A DNA stretch of 64,000 nt from an uncultured Clostridia bacterium (GTDB taxonomy: Bacteria; Bacillota; Clostridia; TANB77; CAG-508): NCBI GenBank assembly GCA_944388765.1, contig CALXKA010000002.1, positions 11,509 to 75,508 on the forward strand. Reading direction: 5' to 3'. Every line of letters begins with the position of its first letter. Positions within the stretch are counted from its first letter, which is position 1. Made by a program: the position numbers and the translations under genes. Under the pieces are notes generated by a model. That model saw nothing but the letters and a program-made list of their open reading frames with translations, made no database searches and was not told the DNA's origin. This document shows positions 9,359 through 11,538 of this stretch, piece after piece.

Positions 9359-10261
9359 TCATGGTTCTATATCATTTTTTATCATTTCAATTAGTTTTAA
9401 TGTTGCATTATTTAATAATTCATCTTTTTGAACTGCTATACCAAAATTTCTTATTAGTGGTTTGTTTGAAATTTTTATTTCTACTAGTTCTCCACTTTCT
9501 AATTCTTTTTTTATATTATTTTTTATTCCAAAACCTATCCCTAAACCTTGCATTGTAAAATATTTTCTTGCATTTGTGCTAGTCATAATGAATTTAGGTT
9601 CATATTCTATATGATTATTTTCACAAAATTGTTTTAATATTTTTCCAGTAGTAGATTTTTCTGCTGGCGATATTAATTCTATTTTCAGTAATTCTTTTGC
9701 TTGTTTTTGATTTTTGATTTTTTTACAATACTCTTTTGTAGCATAAAAACAATCTTCTATTTCTCCACATTCTATAATTTGTATGTTTGACTCATTATAT
9801 TCATATGGTAAATTTACAGCTACTAAATCTACTTCTCCTTTTGATAATTCTTCTATTGAGTCTTTAATATATCCACCTGACACTTCTATTTTTATTTTTG
9901 GATATTTTTTTGAAAATTTTATTATTGCATTATATATACCTGCATTTCCTAATGCACTACCTGTTTTTATCTTTATATTCCCTTCTTCGAGATTAATAAA
10001 CTGACTAAACTTGTTTTCTGCATTGTTCATTATATCAACACTTGTTTTTATATATTTATATAAATGTTTACCTTCATCTGTCAGTTTCACTCCTTTTGGT
10101 GTCCTAAAAAACAACTTTCCTTTTAAGTTTTCCTCTAATTTTCTTATACTCTGTGTTATGGCTGGTTGAGAGACATATAGTTTTTCTGCTGCTTTTGAGA
10201 AACTTTCACATTCTGCTACAATACAAAATATCCTATATGCTTCAAAATCTATTTCCATCAT
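9359..10261 (-). CDS. LysR-family transcriptional regulator (paralog of 8187..9092)
   Basis: FCIVAECESFSKAAEKLYVSQPAITQSIRKLEENL. Its ATG overlaps the TGA of the upstream gene (ATGA), and GGAGG lies 9 nt upstream inside that gene. Confidence 0.85.
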   Translation of the reverse strand: MMEIDFEAYRIFCIVAECESFSKAAEKLYVSQPAITQSIRKLEENLKGKLFFRTPKGVKLTDEGKHLYKYIKTSVDIMNNAENKFSQFINLEEGNIKIKTGSALGNAGIYNAIIKFSKKYPKIKIEVSGGYIKDSIEELSKGEVDLVAVNLPYEYNESNIQIIECGEIEDCFYATKEYCKKIKNQKQAKELLKIELISPAEKSTTGKILKQFCENNHIEYEPKFIMTSTNARKYFTMQGLGIGFGIKNNIKKELESGELVEIKISNKPLIRNFGIAVQKDELLNNATLKLIEMIKNDIEP

Positions 10262-11538
10262 CTGCTATCTCCTCCTTGTGCTAAATCTATATCTTGCTTT
10301 ACAGAAATTAAAAATTCATTTAAATTTATGTTTTCTGGCTCTTTTTGAATTTTTCCCAATTTATTTATATCACTAGATGCATATTGTATAAATCCTTTTC
10401 CTGGTTGAAATACCTTTTTCTCTTTATTATTATATGTTCTTGATATACTATCAAATAGCCATAATGGTAATCTTCCACTAATATATAATTCATTATTTTC
10501 ATCAATATCTGGTAAAGTCATTTTTTCAATATCTTCTTTATTAAGGTATGTTTTTGGATTTAATTCAAATTGCATTATTATACTATCTCTTTTTTGTTTA
10601 ATATATAGTCTAACTTTACCTTTAATAATGTCATATTTTTCTATACCATTTGTATTTGATATTGGTTTTTTCATTTCTTTTTTTATTCTTCTATTTAAAA
10701 AATATTTATTTGAAGTAGCATCATACAATTCTATATTTTCTATGCCATTTTTTTGTGCTATATCAGTTATTAAACCTACCATCCAATTTGCTCTTGCTTC
10801 AAATATTTTTATATTTTCTCTTCCTTTCATAAATCCGTTTAAATATGAATATATTTCATTTGCCCTACTTTCTTCCCAATATATATTATCGTCTCTTAGC
10901 ATTTTCAAATCTTTTGCAACTTTTCTCATATCTAAAACATCATTTTCAGTTAGTAATTCTTGACCTTTTCTTTCTAAACCTTTTTGTAAAGCAATATCAA
11001 AAATTCTTTTTCTTAGTGTAAGAAGTGTTATGTCTTCAAATTTATCTTGTCCTCTTTCAAGATTTGAAATATTTGCTTTTATATGTGGATTGAATTGTGA
11101 TATATAGCTCTTTTCTTCTTGTCCACGTTTTGATTTAATTTCTGCTAATATATCCAAATTATTTTTCATACAAAATCTTTTCCAATGTTCTATATCTTCT
11201 TCTGATTTGTCTAAAATAACTGCTGCATTACACTTTTCCATTATCTCTTCATTTTCTCTGCTTCGTAGTCCGCCAACATCAATTAATACAATTGGAGCTG
11301 TCTCATTTTCTATCCTTTCCTTCACACATTTGATATATTCTTCTGACATTTTGCCCTTTCTTTTGGTTAAAAGAATTTGTTCTTGTTCTTGATTATTAGA
11401 AAAAACCCCTTCTCCATCTGGGCAAGCTCTTACAATTGCTGTATATTTTTGTGGTAACATTTTATATAAGTTTGTTACAAATACTGTCTTTCCAGAATGT
11501 GGTGAACCACATATCACAACTTTTATTTGATTTTTCAT
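10258..11538 (-). CDS. P-loop NTPase fused to a C-terminal Csx3-like domain (CRISPR-associated Csx3 / cA4 ring-nuclease family-like), orphan
   Basis: Walker A VVICGSPHSGKTV, then RACPDGEG and LIDVGG. The C-terminus, MQFELNP...LPDIDENNELYISGRLPLWLFDSISRTY...VFQPGKGFIQYASSD, parallels my recollection of Csx3 AF1864 (...VVISGRGPIWLHCFLAHKY...VYDPRLGAVVVQSHS). This assignment is from memory and has not been searched. Confidence 0.6.
   Translation of the reverse strand: MKNQIKVVICGSPHSGKTVFVTNLYKMLPQKYTAIVRACPDGEGVFSNNQEQEQILLTKRKGKMSEEYIKCVKERIENETAPIVLIDVGGLRSRENEEIMEKCNAAVILDKSEEDIEHWKRFCMKNNLDILAEIKSKRGQEEKSYISQFNPHIKANISNLERGQDKFEDITLLTLRKRIFDIALQKGLERKGQELLTENDVLDMRKVAKDLKMLRDDNIYWEESRANEIYSYLNGFMKGRENIKIFEARANWMVGLITDIAQKNGIENIELYDATSNKYFLNRRIKKEMKKPISNTNGIEKYDIIKGKVRLYIKQKRDSIIMQFELNPKTYLNKEDIEKMTLPDIDENNELYISGRLPLWLFDSISRTYNNKEKKVFQPGKGFIQYASSDINKLGKIQKEPENINLNEFLISVKQDIDLAQGGDSR

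What the first reader, a model, noticed from the sequence alone, without database searches (positions are those of the whole stretch)
10258..11538. Orphan P-loop/Csx3-like protein with no CRISPR-Cas context, translationally coupled to a LysR regulator
The 426-aa protein has an N-terminal Walker A domain (VVICGSPHSGKT ... RACPDGEG ... LIDVGG). Its C-terminal ~90 aa match, from memory, the Csx3 fold signature (FELNP...P......LYISGRLPLWLF...Y......VFQPGKG). Csx3 is a cyclic tetra-adenylate ring nuclease associated with type III CRISPR systems. Here there are no cas genes, no CRISPR array and no cyclase within 64 kb. The gene instead overlaps a LysR gene (ATGA overlap, with the SD inside its own 3' end). 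It could be a stand-alone cyclic-oligonucleotide signal-off or anti-defence enzyme, or a repurposed sensor.
Basis: partly seen in the sequence, partly recalled or inferred. Interest (0 to 1): 0.7.

Follow-up and report, generated by a model that had tools for sequence, protein, structure and literature searches.

The report
Orphan LysR-coupled P-loop/Csx3 sensor protein
This gene encodes a known but uncharacterised CRISPR-accessory protein type (a P-loop NTPase fused to Csx3 domains) that in gut Clostridia sits away from any CRISPR system, is locked to a LysR transcription regulator, and has lost the residues needed to cut cyclic tetra-adenylate, so it more likely senses a nucleotide than destroys one.

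Summary
A 426-aa ORF at 10258-11538 (-) carries every quoted motif and overlaps a LysR gene by ATGA, with a GGAGGAG Shine-Dalgarno inside its 3' end. I found no cas gene, CRISPR array or known cyclase in the 64 kb.

The architecture is not new. The protein matches the 'AAA-Csx3' type III accessory family (C3a67 of Shah et al. 2019; PADLOC E 6e-41), whose function is unknown.

Four things go beyond that:
- The 'AAA' domain looks like a SIMIBI/kinase-type P-loop NTPase, not an AAA+ ATPase.
- There are probably two Csx3-like domains in tandem, forming a pseudo-dimer.
- The Csx3 region contains no histidine, so the Mn/His site cannot form. D69 and R71 are replaced in the C-terminal domain. The S-G-R ligand loop and one Asp are kept.
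- In 27 gut Clostridia loci the gene has no cas neighbours. In 22 of them it abuts a LysR gene, often with predicted phosphoesterases nearby (DHH-like, MYG1, HD and possibly 2H). Relatives elsewhere lie in type III CRISPR loci or in a jumbo-phage-like contig, and at least three of them keep the catalytic set.

Best reading: an exapted nucleotide sensor-NTPase coupled to transcription control, not a ring nuclease. No step has been tested biochemically.

The parts
10258..11538 (-). Gene for the 426-aa P-loop NTPase + tandem Csx3-like protein, a member of the 'AAA-Csx3'/C3a67 family
   Evidence: ORF. PADLOC PDLC01059, E 6e-41. Pfam PF09620 above the gathering cut-off. AF2 model with pLDDT 92.7. 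429 homologues at E<=1e-10.
10984..11538 (-). N-terminal P-loop NTPase domain, residues 1 to about 185. Walker A is G11-T18, the conserved loop is R37-x-C-P-D-G-E-G44, and Walker B is D87-x-G-G90.
   Evidence: Invariant columns in alignments A1 and A2. The PADLOC Csx3-associated P-loop profile PDLC01515 matches at E 4e-43. Foldseek top hits are SIMIBI NTPases and P-loop kinases (Cfd1, FtsY/SRP54, MinD, GPN-loop Npa3, HypB, the CTP synthase N-domain, uridine kinase), not AAA+ proteins.
10645..10941 (-). Middle domain, residues about 200-298. Probably a second, degenerate Csx3-like domain ('FEARANW...ELYD273AT'). It keeps the D69 equivalent (D273) but lacks the H57, H60 and R71 equivalents.
   Evidence: Profile-profile alignment to the C-terminal domain is in register (P 0.003). 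The equivalent domain of relatives gives a weak second hit to my own Csx3 HMM (iE 0.002-0.02 in L035, L043, L007, L021 and L019). Both domains are significant in the tandem-Csx3 paralogues (iE 1e-8 to 6e-5). Both domains share a beta-alpha-beta-beta core in the AF2 secondary structure. Motif table. The domain was not detected directly in the window protein by the HMM.
10339..10644 (-). C-terminal Csx3 domain, residues about 299-400. The ligand-loop residues S354-G355-R356 are kept. The catalytic equivalents are replaced: H57->R367, H60->N370, D69->Q378, R71->G380, H80->S389.
   Evidence: Pfam match. Residue-by-residue alignment to AF1864, mapped to the numbering of PMC7371418. Foldseek to 3wzg, 6yud and 6vjg with target-normalised TM 0.72-0.83.
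10258..10275 (-). Translational coupling element: GGAGGAG Shine-Dalgarno (10269-10275) inside the 3' end of the gene, and an ATGA stop/start overlap (10258-10261)
   Evidence: Read directly from the sequence. Short gaps or overlaps (-4 to +34 nt) between the two genes recur in the related loci.
9359..10261 (-). LysR-type transcription regulator 1, the conserved partner gene
   Evidence: Pfam HTH_1 and LysR_substrate. It clusters with the LysR gene adjacent to the homologue in 22 of 27 Clostridia loci, at 40-89% identity.
9325..9343 (-). Hairpin AATAGAGA-ATG-TCTCTATT followed by a T-run, 15 nt after the LysR1 stop. A candidate terminator that would close a two-gene operon.
   Evidence: Found with my own dyad search. 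The consensus terminator scan found none because the stem is A+T-rich. This is an inference only.
8187..9092 (-). LysR-type regulator 2, a paralogue 39% identical to LysR1. It is separated by 2 nt from the next gene.
   Evidence: Pfam, identity, spacing.
6736..8184 (-). 482-aa protein. The N-terminal module is variable and poorly modelled. The core (residues about 160-470) is a highly conserved, predicted DHH-superfamily phosphoesterase. Its link to the system is facultative.
   Evidence: No Pfam, PADLOC or PHROG match. Invariant H181-x3-D185-x-D187, D229, D246, H384 and G442-G443. AF2 core pLDDT is above 90. Foldseek top hits are all DHH-family proteins (PPX1, RecJ, GAN/Cdc45), but weak at E 6e-4 to 1e-2. 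It lies on the same contig as AAA-Csx3 homologues in at least 7 cases. It also occurs alone in 3 of 3 other loci checked.
5908..6684 (-). 258-aa protein of unknown function. It is conserved next to the DHH-like gene in the relative L043 (74% identity).
   Evidence: Membership of the system is uncertain.

Best explanation
The gene encodes a CRISPR-independent member of the 'AAA-Csx3' family that has been converted from a ring nuclease into a ligand sensor.

Proposed mechanism:
- Two tandem Csx3-like domains form an intramolecular pseudo-dimer. It keeps the ligand-binding ('D69') face of Csx3: the S-G-R loop in the C-terminal domain and one Asp in the middle domain.
- It has lost the Mn/His ('H60') face needed to cleave cyclic tetra-adenylate.
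- Binding of an adenylate-type nucleotide (cA4-like, or a smaller asymmetric one) would control the N-terminal SIMIBI/kinase-type P-loop NTPase. This class typically works through nucleotide-dependent dimerisation.
- The output is coupled to the co-translated LysR-type regulator, either by direct interaction or through a shared ligand or product.
- Predicted phosphoesterases recur in these loci (the DHH-like protein here; MYG1, HD and possibly 2H enzymes, and His-bearing tandem-Csx3 paralogues, in relatives). They would remove the nucleotide.

Shown: the domain composition, the fold, the loss of catalytic residues, the conserved LysR adjacency and the absence of CRISPR nearby. Inferred: ligand binding, NTPase regulation, the link to LysR, and the identity and source of the ligand.
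For: Family and fold:
- PADLOC AAA-Csx3, E 6e-41; Pfam Csx3 above the gathering cut-off.
- AF2 model with pLDDT 92.7, with Foldseek matches to AfCsx3 and to SIMIBI NTPases.

Catalytic loss with retention of the binding face:
- Alignment to AF1864 read against the mutational data of PMC7371418. There, H60A and D69A are inactive, and cA4 contacts are made mostly by S44, G45, R46, I49 and R71.
- The protein has no histidine after residue 152.
- S354, G355, R356, P358, W360, Q378, P379, R249, A250, N251 and D273 are invariant or nearly so across 40 homologues. That is what purifying selection on a binding face would produce.

Contrast within the family:
- L035 (cas-adjacent), L019 and the phage-like L051 keep D-P-R in the middle domain. 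L019 and L051 also keep H-x-x-H there and H80 in the C-terminal domain.
- All LysR-linked Clostridia members lack the histidines.

Conserved context:
- 27 Clostridia loci have no cas gene or CRISPR array within +-10 kb; 22 have an adjacent LysR.
- Intergenic gaps between the two genes are -4 to +34 nt.
- Recurrent neighbours: MYG1 exonuclease at E 3e-70, an HD protein, the DHH-like protein and tandem-Csx3 paralogues.

The gene is maintained:
- An identical protein is on 22 contigs read, and is indexed in 50 blocks of the collection.
- 429 homologues at E<=1e-10; 872 cluster representatives at E<=1e-3.
Against: - No biochemical data exist for any AAA-Csx3 protein. Reviews call the ATPase domain 'of unknown function'.
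- The middle domain of the window protein itself is not detected as Csx3 by HMM. The pseudo-dimer rests on family alignment, weak HMM hits in relatives and one profile alignment at P 0.003. I could not inspect the model coordinates.
- The window protein also lacks the R71 equivalent (T275) that most 495-aa relatives keep, so its binding site is more eroded than theirs.
- No producer of a cyclic oligoadenylate was found, and the rest of the genome could not be searched.
- LysR adjacency proves co-expression, not interaction.
- The DHH-like gene also occurs without AAA-Csx3, so its membership is facultative.
- Foldseek support is weak both for the SIMIBI assignment (E about 1e-4, target-normalised TM 0.3-0.5) and for the DHH assignment (E 6e-4 to 1e-2).
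Confidence: 0.42

Rival explanations
1. It is a genuine cA4 ring nuclease (Crn3-like 'off switch'). It serves a type III CRISPR-Cas, CBASS or other cOA-producing system encoded elsewhere in the genome.
For: - Csx3 domain match.
- The family is a documented type III accessory.
- Relatives in Spirochaetes, Ktedonobacteraceae, Ignavibacteria, Bacteroidota and Cyanobacteria lie next to cas10, csm3, cas6 or cas1-cas2 genes or CRISPR arrays.
- Accessory genes can act in trans.
- The middle domain keeps D273, the D69 equivalent.
Against: - H57, H60 and H80 are absolutely conserved in Csx3, and H60A is inactive. The Csx3 region here has no histidine at all.
- D69 is Q378 and R71 is G380 in the recognisable domain.
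- The NCBIfam equivalog threshold is missed by 36 bits.
- None of the 27 Clostridia loci has cas genes within +-10 kb.
Confidence: 0.13
2. It is one half of a split, composite ring nuclease. The AAA-Csx3 protein supplies the D69-type binding face. A second protein supplies the metal/His face or the hydrolytic step: the His-bearing tandem-Csx3 paralogue in relatives, or here the DHH-like phosphoesterase. Cleavage would then occur only in a ligand-bridged hetero-complex.
For: - In AfCsx3 the active site is formed between the D69 face of one dimer and the H60 face of the next. Mixing the inactive H60A and D69A proteins restores activity.
- In 10 related loci a paralogue keeps H57 and H60 in domain 1 and S-G-R plus H80 in domain 2, but lacks D69 and R71. 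The neighbouring 495-aa AAA-Csx3 keeps D-x-R and S-G-R but no histidines.
- The same two N-terminal modules appear both on these paralogues and on the DHH-like protein.
Against: - The window has no such paralogue in any frame.
- The window protein lacks the R71 equivalent.
- The complementarity is read from alignments only, and no complex was modelled.
Confidence: 0.15
3. It is a nucleotide-independent regulatory NTPase. The Csx3-derived (STAS-like) domains now serve only as protein-protein interaction modules, and the protein acts as a partner or chaperone of the LysR regulator.
For: - Csx3 is reported to be structurally closer to STAS domains than to CARF.
- All catalytic residues are lost.
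- There is strict, translationally coupled pairing with LysR.
Against: - The residues that stay invariant (S-G-R-x-P-x-W, Q-P-G, R-A-N, Y-D) are the equivalents of the nucleotide-binding loop of Csx3.
- Nucleotide and oligonucleotide phosphoesterases recur in the neighbourhood.
Confidence: 0.15
4. It is a mobile-element or prophage anti-defence gene: a viral ring nuclease or a sponge against type III CRISPR or CBASS signalling.
For: - One full-length homologue with intact catalytic residues lies in a 167-kb jumbo-phage-like viral contig, next to thymidylate kinase, thymidine kinase and DNA ligase genes.
- The locus varies between strains: a 5.4-kb indel, a frameshifted second copy, and a nearby YhgA-like transposase and DGR.
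- A binder without cleavage activity could act as a sponge.
Against: - Only 2 hits in 2.9 million viral contigs, and no PHROG match.
- Neighbours here and in 27 loci are chromosomal housekeeping or metabolic genes.
- No integrase or phage structural genes were found.
- The conserved partner is a LysR regulator.
Confidence: 0.05
5. It is an oligonucleotide-processing enzyme. The P-loop domain would be a kinase-type enzyme that phosphorylates or otherwise processes short adenylates bound by the Csx3 domains. It would feed a 2H/DHH/MYG1 degradation route, as nucleotide salvage rather than signalling.
For: - Foldseek also hits uridine kinase, nicotinamide riboside kinase, phosphoribulokinase, APS kinase and polynucleotide kinase.
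- Pfam AAA_18 and KTI12 give sub-threshold hits.
- Neighbouring phosphoesterases.
Against: - The kinase hits rank below the SIMIBI NTPases and are weak.
- No lid or substrate-binding motif was identified.
- This does not explain the LysR coupling.
Confidence: 0.1

Closest known systems
AAA-Csx3 (C3a67, cluster 67 of Shah et al. 2019, representative Caur_2269; PADLOC profile PDLC01059)
   Same: It has the same domain order, P-loop NTPase at the N-terminus and Csx3 at the C-terminus. The profile match covers residues 6-371 at E 6e-41. The P-loop signature GxPxSGK[ST] ... RACPDGEG ... DVGG is shared.
   Different: The catalogued family was defined by adjacency to type III (A)/B cas cassettes. This clade has no cas neighbours in 27 loci and is instead fixed to a LysR gene. 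It also lacks the His triad that the phage-like L051 and L019 keep; L019, L035 and L051 also keep the D-P-R motif in the middle domain.
Csx3-AAA (cluster 35 of Shah et al. 2019; Synechocystis Slr7080; PADLOC PDLC01045)
   Same: It has the same two domain types, and the P-loop domain is homologous (E 1e-37 to the Csx3-AAA profile). Its function is likewise unknown.
   Different: The domain order is reversed. It has a single canonical Csx3 domain with H57, H60, D69, R71 or K71, and H80 intact. It is embedded in type III operons next to cas10, csm3, csx1 and cas6.
Crn3/Csx3 ring nuclease (A. fulgidus AF1864; PDB 3WZG, 6YUD, 6VJG)
   Same: The fold of the C-terminal domain matches (target-normalised TM 0.72-0.83). 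The cA4-contacting S44-G45-R46 loop is conserved as S354-G355-R356.
   Different: AfCsx3 is a 110-aa homodimer that stacks head to tail around cA4 and needs Mn2+, H57, H60, H80, D69 and R71. Here two diverged domains sit in one chain fused to an NTPase, there are no histidines, D69 is Q and R71 is G in the C-terminal domain, and the NCBIfam equivalog cut-off is not reached.
Csa3 and other CARF-HTH regulators (cOA-sensing transcription factors of CRISPR loci)
   Same: The proposed logic is the same: a Csx3/CARF-type nucleotide sensor coupled to a transcriptional output (own knowledge; Csa3 is described).
   Different: In those proteins the sensor and the HTH are one polypeptide and regulate cas genes. 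Here the DNA-binding protein is a separate LysR-type regulator, an NTPase is interposed, and no cas genes are nearby.

Membership tests
AAA-Csx3 (C3a67 / PADLOC PDLC01059) | Full-length match to the family profile | tested here: met
   E 6e-41, 139 bits. Protein residues 6-371 match profile positions 6-346 of 382.
AAA-Csx3 (C3a67 / PADLOC PDLC01059) | Domain order: P-loop ATPase at the N-terminus, Csx3 at the C-terminus | tested here: met
   Walker A at residues 11-18. Pfam Csx3 match at 327-371. AF2 model and Foldseek.
AAA-Csx3 (C3a67 / PADLOC PDLC01059) | Encoded adjacent to a type III CRISPR-Cas cassette, the criterion by which the family was defined | tested here: not met
   No cas gene or array in the 64-kb window, nor within +-10 kb in 27 related Clostridia loci. 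The rest of the genome could not be searched.
Crn3/Csx3 ring nuclease (PF09620 / TIGR02579) | Csx3 domain recognisable by sequence and fold | tested here: met
   PF09620 scores 28.1 bits against a gathering cut-off of 21. Foldseek target-normalised TM is 0.72-0.83 to AfCsx3.
Crn3/Csx3 ring nuclease (PF09620 / TIGR02579) | Equivalog-level score (NCBIfam TIGR02579 cut-off of 55.4 bits) | tested here: not met
   19.4 bits.
Crn3/Csx3 ring nuclease (PF09620 / TIGR02579) | Conserved histidines H57, H60 and H80 of the Mn-dependent 'H60 face' | tested here: not met
   They map to R367, N370 and S389 in the C-terminal domain, and to about D259 and Q262 in the middle domain. There is no histidine anywhere after residue 152.
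Crn3/Csx3 ring nuclease (PF09620 / TIGR02579) | Catalytic D69 and R71 on the binding face | tested here: not met
   The C-terminal domain has Q378 and G380. The middle domain keeps D273 but has T275 in place of R71.
Crn3/Csx3 ring nuclease (PF09620 / TIGR02579) | cA4-contacting S44-G45-R46 loop | tested here: met
   S354-G355-R356. G355 is invariant, S354 is nearly so (>=90%), and position 356 is Arg or Lys in 40 homologues.
Crn3/Csx3 ring nuclease (PF09620 / TIGR02579) | Dimeric arrangement that forms the ligand site | tested here: inconclusive
   A tandem second domain is suggested by hhalign (P 0.003), by weak HMM hits in relatives and by the shared secondary-structure core. The model coordinates could not be inspected.
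Crn3/Csx3 ring nuclease (PF09620 / TIGR02579) | Mn2+-dependent cleavage of cA4 to A2-P | not testable with these tools
   This needs an enzyme assay.
AAA+ ATPases (the name the literature gives to the fused domain) | AAA+ fold: an ASCE core with a C-terminal helical lid and an arginine finger | tested here: not met
   No AAA+ structure is among the top 50 Foldseek hits. The hits are SIMIBI NTPases and P-loop kinases. Pfam AAA_18, AAA_22 and other P-loop families are all below their cut-offs. The structural matches are weak (E about 1e-4), so the positive SIMIBI assignment is tentative.
LysR-type transcription regulators (the partner gene, 9359-10261) | N-terminal HTH_1 plus a C-terminal LysR substrate-binding domain | tested here: met
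   PF00126 at 74.1 bits and PF03466 at 75.5 bits.

The most novel reading that the evidence does not exclude
Gut Clostridia may run a CRISPR-independent adenylate-nucleotide signalling circuit built from exapted type III parts. A catalytically dead tandem-Csx3 pseudo-dimer would sense the nucleotide. Because the pseudo-dimer keeps only one S-G-R loop and one Asp, that nucleotide could be asymmetric or smaller than cA4, for example a linear di- or tetra-adenylate or c-di-AMP/pApA. Sensing would switch a SIMIBI-type NTPase and thereby a dedicated LysR regulator. Signal removal would be delegated in trans to His-bearing Csx3 paralogues or to DHH/MYG1/2H/HD phosphoesterases, making a 'split' ring nuclease. 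This would be a Csx3-based transcriptional signalling pathway outside CRISPR immunity, and it would assign the first function to the AAA-Csx3 family.
Probability: 0.2. Interest if true: 0.8.

Novelty: new variant of a known kind. Interest (0 to 1): 0.55.

Why it matters
Csx3/Crn3 fused to an 'AAA' domain has been listed as a type III CRISPR accessory since 2018-19, and no function has been assigned.

This locus and its relatives add several concrete leads:
- The fused domain is probably a SIMIBI/kinase-type NTPase rather than an AAA+ ATPase.
- The Csx3 part is probably a tandem pseudo-dimer.
- A large clade in gut Clostridia has left CRISPR loci, lost the catalytic histidines and become locked to a LysR regulator. 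It numbers hundreds of sequences. One variant is identical across 22 contigs read.

That makes it a natural 'sensor-only' version of a ring nuclease. It also makes a long-standing question testable, namely what the ATPase of Csx3-AAA and AAA-Csx3 proteins does, using a protein that should bind its ligand without destroying it. If a ligand and a LysR regulon are found, this would document exaptation of CRISPR second-messenger hardware for ordinary gene regulation. I found no paper that links Csx3 with LysR regulators.

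Tried and rejected
- **CRISPR arrays and cas genes in the window.** Tandem Repeats Finder, my own spaced-repeat detector, Pfam and PADLOC on the ORFs >=120 aa I scanned all found nothing.
- **A second Csx3 or AAA-Csx3 copy in the window.** Six-frame hmmsearch with three home-made HMMs found only the target.
- **Direct HMM detection of the middle domain as Csx3 in the window protein.** This failed. 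Support comes only from relatives and from hhalign.
- **Phage or anti-defence origin.** PHROGs gave no hit for the target. The viral-contig scan gave 2 hits. BFVD Foldseek returned only generic P-loop proteins.
- **Promoter and terminator scan.** It was uninformative in 25.6% G+C DNA: 48 promoter-like sites against 45.7 expected, and 0 terminators.
- **Shared operator motifs.** A search between the two upstream regions gave only A/T-rich near-matches. Two CTTATA-type palindromes upstream of LysR2 could be chance.
- **Is the DHH-like gene an obligate partner?** Rejected. Three of three independently chosen homologues have no AAA-Csx3 or LysR nearby.
- **Pfam, PADLOC and PHROG searches on the other recurrent neighbours.** The proteins I call c2 (about 160 aa), c429, c21 and c26 (clusters from my own neighbourhood analysis) and the 206-aa ORF gave no function.
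- **The '2H phosphoesterase' reading of the N-terminal HITFKF/HITVSLG module.** This rests on motif inspection only; Pfam did not confirm it.
- **Makarova et al. 2020 (CARF classification).** The paper is not in the held library.
- **Organism identity.** It was not determined beyond 'uncultured gut Clostridia-like'. The basis is 25.6% G+C, an OLE RNA, and closest loci in Clostridia metagenome-assembled genomes.

Full report
**1. The observation**

The minus-strand ORF 10258..11538 encodes 426 aa.

Its TGA stop (10258-10260) overlaps the ATG (10259-10261) of the next ORF. A GGAGGAG Shine-Dalgarno sequence lies at 10269-10275, 7 nt upstream of that ATG. The next ORF (9359..10261) is a LysR-type regulator with HTH_1 and LysR_substrate domains.

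The Csx3 resemblance is statistically real:
- Pfam PF09620 scores 28.1 bits against a gathering cut-off of 21.
- AF1864/Csx3 chains are the best matches among solved structures by sequence (E 0.016-0.035).
- An AlphaFold2 model built on a 40-sequence alignment (pLDDT 92.7, pTM 0.90) superposes on AfCsx3 crystal structures with target-normalised TM 0.72-0.83.

**2. No CRISPR-Cas in the window**

- Tandem Repeats Finder and my own spaced-repeat detector find no CRISPR array.
- Rfam finds only an OLE RNA and two tRNAs.
- Pfam and PADLOC scans of the ORFs >=120 aa that I submitted return housekeeping genes: SMC, Mfd, two type IA topoisomerases, LeuRS, AddB, RNase III, Pol IV, thymidylate kinase and others. 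They return no Cas protein and no known cyclic-oligonucleotide cyclase.
- Seven of the scanned ORFs matched nothing, so an unknown producer cannot be excluded.

The window is chromosomal, 25.6% G+C.

**3. The architecture is already catalogued**

PADLOC profile PDLC01059, 'C3a67, AAA-Csx3', matches residues 6-371 at E 6e-41. This is cluster 67 of Shah et al. 2019 (PMC6546367). The authors describe it as the reverse-order counterpart of the cyanobacterial 'Csx3-AAA' cluster 35, and both were found next to type III cassettes. They speculated that the ATPase is allosterically regulated by cOA. Later reviews still call the ATPase domain 'of unknown function'.

**4. Anatomy**

*(a) N-terminal domain (residues 1 to about 185).*
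- Invariant across homologues are G11, S15-G16-K17 (Walker A), P40-D41-G42-E43 (a signature loop), K61, D87-x-G89-G90 (Walker B) and W119.
- The best Foldseek matches are SIMIBI-class NTPases (Cfd1/Mrp, FtsY/SRP54, MinD, GPN-loop Npa3, ATPase-type HypB, the CTP synthase amidoligase domain), followed by P-loop kinases.
- No AAA+ protein is in the top 50.
- These matches are weak (E about 1e-4). I therefore treat 'SIMIBI/kinase-type, not AAA+' as probable rather than proven.

*(b) C-terminal domain (residues about 299-400).* This is the recognisable Csx3 domain.

*(c) Middle domain (residues about 200-298).* It has the same beta-alpha-beta-beta core in the model, and the motif 'IKIFEARANWMVGL...IELYDAT' parallels 'LYISGRLPLWLFDS...KVFQPGK'.
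- Profile-profile alignment puts the two in register (P 0.003).
- A Csx3 HMM that I built from canonical domains gives a weak second hit at exactly this place in several relatives (iE 0.002-0.02).
- The same HMM gives significant double hits (1e-8 to 6e-5) in the stand-alone paralogues.
- In the window protein itself the middle domain is too diverged to be detected directly.

I conclude that the family is P-loop + Csx3 + Csx3, that is, an intramolecular pseudo-dimer. My confidence in this is moderate.

**5. Catalytic residues**

In AfCsx3, cA4 is sandwiched between the 'D69 face' of one dimer and the 'H60 face' of the next.
- The D69 face makes contacts through I22, S44, G45, R46, I49 and R71.
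- The H60 face carries H57, H60 and H80, the probable Mn site.
- H60A and D69A are each inactive, and they complement each other when mixed (PMC7371418).

I mapped the phmmer alignment to that numbering:

| AfCsx3 residue | Window protein, C-terminal domain |
|---|---|
| S44-G45-R46 | S354-G355-R356 (kept) |
| I49 | L359 |
| H57 | R367 |
| H60 | N370 |
| D69 | Q378 |
| R71 | G380 |
| H80 | S389 |

In the middle domain the D69 equivalent is kept (D273), and R71 is T275. The protein has only three histidines (14, 118 and 152), and none lies in either Csx3-like domain. The canonical Mn/His mechanism is therefore impossible for this protein alone. The residues that remain invariant or nearly so across 40 homologues are G355, W360, Q378, S354, P358, P379, R249-A250-N251 and D273, with position 356 Arg or Lys. 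They correspond to the ligand-binding face.

**6. Relatives and their contexts**

One scan of 185,579 species genomes returned 50 loci. I called ORFs and clustered the neighbours.

*Group A.* These are Csx3-then-P-loop proteins of about 305 aa in Cyanobacteria, Ignavibacteria, Bacteroidota and Chlorobiota.
- Many of them sit inside type III operons. In L040, for example, Cas10, a Csx1-type CARF protein and Cas6 are confirmed by Pfam.
- They keep the full catalytic set.

*Group B.* These are full-length P-loop-Csx3-Csx3 proteins outside Clostridia: Treponema and other Spirochaetales next to cas1-cas2 and arrays; Ktedonobacteraceae next to three Csm3/Cmr4-like genes; and L019 and L023 with no cas neighbour in my clustering. 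A scan of viral contigs added a comparable homologue, L051, in a 167-kb jumbo-phage-like contig.
- L019, L035 and L051 keep D-P-R in the middle domain.
- L019 and L051 also keep H-x-x-H there, and S-G-R plus H80 in the C-terminal domain.
- These look like active pseudo-dimeric ring nucleases.

*Group C.* These are 27 loci from uncultured gut Clostridia, including the window.
- None has cas genes or arrays within +-10 kb.
- 22 have a LysR gene immediately adjacent, usually downstream and sometimes upstream. Gaps are -4 to +34 nt.
- 21 have a 160-aa protein of unknown function, which I call c2 after my neighbourhood clustering.
- 10 have a second, P-loop-less tandem-Csx3 paralogue.
- 4 have a MYG1-family DHH exonuclease (E 3e-70).
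- None keeps the histidines, although most 495-aa members keep 'Y-D-I-R', the D69 and R71 equivalents.
- The partner LysR proteins form one cluster at 40-89% identity to the window's LysR1.

The family is abundant. There are 429 proteins at E<=1e-10 in the 90%-clustered collection, none of them named. There are 872 representatives at E<=1e-3 in the exhaustive search.

**7. The local cassette and its variability**

Downstream of the AAA-Csx3-LysR1 pair comes an A+T-rich hairpin with a T-run (9325-9343). Next comes a 266-nt spacer with two CTTATA-type palindromes, then LysR2 (39% identical to LysR1). Two nucleotides after LysR2 starts a 482-aa protein, followed by a 258-aa protein.

The core of the 482-aa protein is highly conserved, at 43-87% identity across about 140 homologues with variable N-termini.
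- It has invariant H181-x3-D185-x-D187, D229, D246, H384 and G442-G443.
- Its core models at pLDDT above 90.
- Its top Foldseek hits are all DHH-superfamily phosphoesterases (PPX1, RecJ, GAN/Cdc45), but weak at E 6e-4 to 1e-2.

I read it as a DHH-like phosphoesterase. Its link to the system is mixed:
The order LysR-AAA-Csx3-DHH-like is confirmed in L053.
- In favour: its alternative N-terminal modules also occur on the tandem-Csx3 paralogues. One starts 'MKxYVP...'. The other carries two H-x-T motifs, which I read as possibly 2H-phosphoesterase-like although Pfam did not confirm it.
- Against: three of three other homologues have no AAA-Csx3 or LysR nearby.

The link is therefore facultative.

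Contigs that carry a target protein identical to the window's come in two forms.
- L054 matches the window.
- L055-L057 carry 5.4 kb more between the DHH-like gene and the 258-aa gene. The extra DNA holds an HD-domain protein, a second 495-type AAA-Csx3 split by a frameshift (193 + 302 aa), c2, two unknowns and a 123-aa chimeric remnant of a second DHH-like gene.

The locus is thus an accessory, rearranging region. In the window it lies between the ATPase and permease genes and the substrate-binding-protein gene of an ABC transporter.

**8. How it most likely works**

Shown:
- Family membership.
- A P-loop NTPase with intact Walker motifs.
- One clear Csx3 domain and one probable one.
- Loss of the metal/His face with retention of the S-G-R loop and one Asp.
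- Conserved, translationally coupled LysR partner.
- No CRISPR-Cas nearby.
- Recurrent phosphoesterase neighbours.

Inferred: the tandem Csx3 module binds an adenylate-type nucleotide without cleaving it. Binding, and possibly ligand-bridged stacking as in Csx3 filaments, controls the NTPase. NTPases of this class are typically activated by dimerisation (established knowledge of SIMIBI proteins). The state of the NTPase is relayed to the LysR regulator, and phosphoesterases encoded in cis or elsewhere clear the ligand.

I put this at about 0.4. The main rivals are:
- a split nuclease completed in trans (0.15);
- a nucleotide-independent LysR partner built from STAS-like domains (0.15);
- a real ring nuclease serving a distant type III or CBASS system (0.13);
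- a kinase-type processing enzyme (0.10);
- a mobile-element anti-defence gene (0.05).

**9. Comparison with what is known, and novelty**

It works most like a CARF/Csx3 sensor coupled to transcription, as Csa3 is, but with separate sensor-NTPase and LysR proteins.

By profile and domain order it is a member of AAA-Csx3 (C3a67). It fails that family's contextual criterion, type III adjacency. It also fails the catalytic criteria of Crn3/Csx3, so it should not be annotated as a ring nuclease.

I found no paper that links Csx3 with LysR regulators. I classify it as a new variant of a known kind. It is of moderate interest as it stands, and of higher interest if the CRISPR-independent signalling reading proves true.

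Noticed in passing
window 16487-19912 (minus strand): A complete diversity-generating retroelement. The reverse transcriptase is at 16487-17563 (RVT_1). The accessory bAvd gene is at 17494-17862 (Pfam bAvd, seen on the identical gene in L054). A 150-nt template repeat lies at 18049-18198, and a variable repeat lies at 18347-18496, inside the 3' end of the 523-aa target gene 18341-19912. 22 of the 24 mismatches fall on adenines of the template repeat.
   Followed up: yes
window 59383-59975 (minus strand): A full-length OLE (ornate large extremophilic) RNA, Rfam RF01071, 343 bits, covering model positions 1-616. The adjacent genes were not examined for OLE-associated proteins.
   Followed up: no
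L055:12277-17499, L056 and L057, compared with window 6684-6736: Strain polymorphism. Three contigs with a target protein identical to the window's carry an extra 5.4 kb between the DHH-like gene and the 258-aa gene. It holds an HD protein, a frameshifted second AAA-Csx3 of the 495-aa type (193 + 302 aa), the 159-aa c2 protein, 419-aa and 155-aa unknowns, and a 123-aa chimeric remnant of a second DHH-like gene. The window and L054 have the short form, apparently through deletion between two DHH-like gene copies.
   Followed up: partly
window 11730-12546 and 3717-4733: The ABC permease gene is split into two overlapping ORFs (147 and 156 aa here; 156 + 127 aa in all four related contigs). The transporter's NMT1/THI5-like substrate-binding-protein gene lies about 7 kb away, on the other side of the AAA-Csx3/LysR cassette. 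It looks as if the cassette was inserted into the ABC operon.
   Followed up: partly
L004:15351-16073, L013:12989-14077, L017:12971-14110 and 7 other loci: Stand-alone tandem-Csx3 paralogues. Domain 1 keeps H57 and H60. Domain 2 keeps S-G-R and H80. Both lack D69 and R71. This is complementary to the neighbouring AAA-Csx3, which keeps D-x-R and S-G-R but no histidines. Some carry an N-terminal module with two H-x-T motifs (possibly a 2H phosphoesterase; not confirmed by Pfam).
   Followed up: partly
L051:8010-9173 (IMG/VR UViG_3300012009_000091, 167 kb): A jumbo-phage-like contig encodes a 387-aa AAA-Csx3 with the full catalytic complement (H-x-x-H and D-P-R in the middle domain; S-G-R and H80 in the C-terminal domain). 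It lies near thymidylate kinase, thymidine kinase and NAD-dependent DNA ligase genes. It is a candidate viral ring nuclease.
   Followed up: partly
window 1-3132 (minus strand): One long ORF runs off the left end of the window. The equivalent gene in L054 is SMC, with SMC_N and SMC_hinge domains. The three plus-strand ORFs listed there (113-604, 1235-1693, 2378-2797) are therefore spurious.
   Followed up: yes
window 9093-9358 (minus strand): The spacer between the two LysR genes contains two palindromes that share CTTATA half-sites: TATAAG-N5-CTTATA and CTTATAA-N3-TTATAAG. They are possible LysR operators, but could be chance in 25% G+C DNA.
   Followed up: no
window 13453-14496 (minus strand): A YhgA-like (Transposase_31, PD-(D/E)XK) gene lies 2 kb upstream of the cassette. 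It is conserved in place in the related contigs L054-L056.
   Followed up: no
window 25482-27443 and 51729-53780: Two type IA topoisomerase genes lie in one 64-kb stretch. The first lacks the zinc-ribbon C-terminus and is followed by two HD-domain genes (27446-29045).
   Followed up: no
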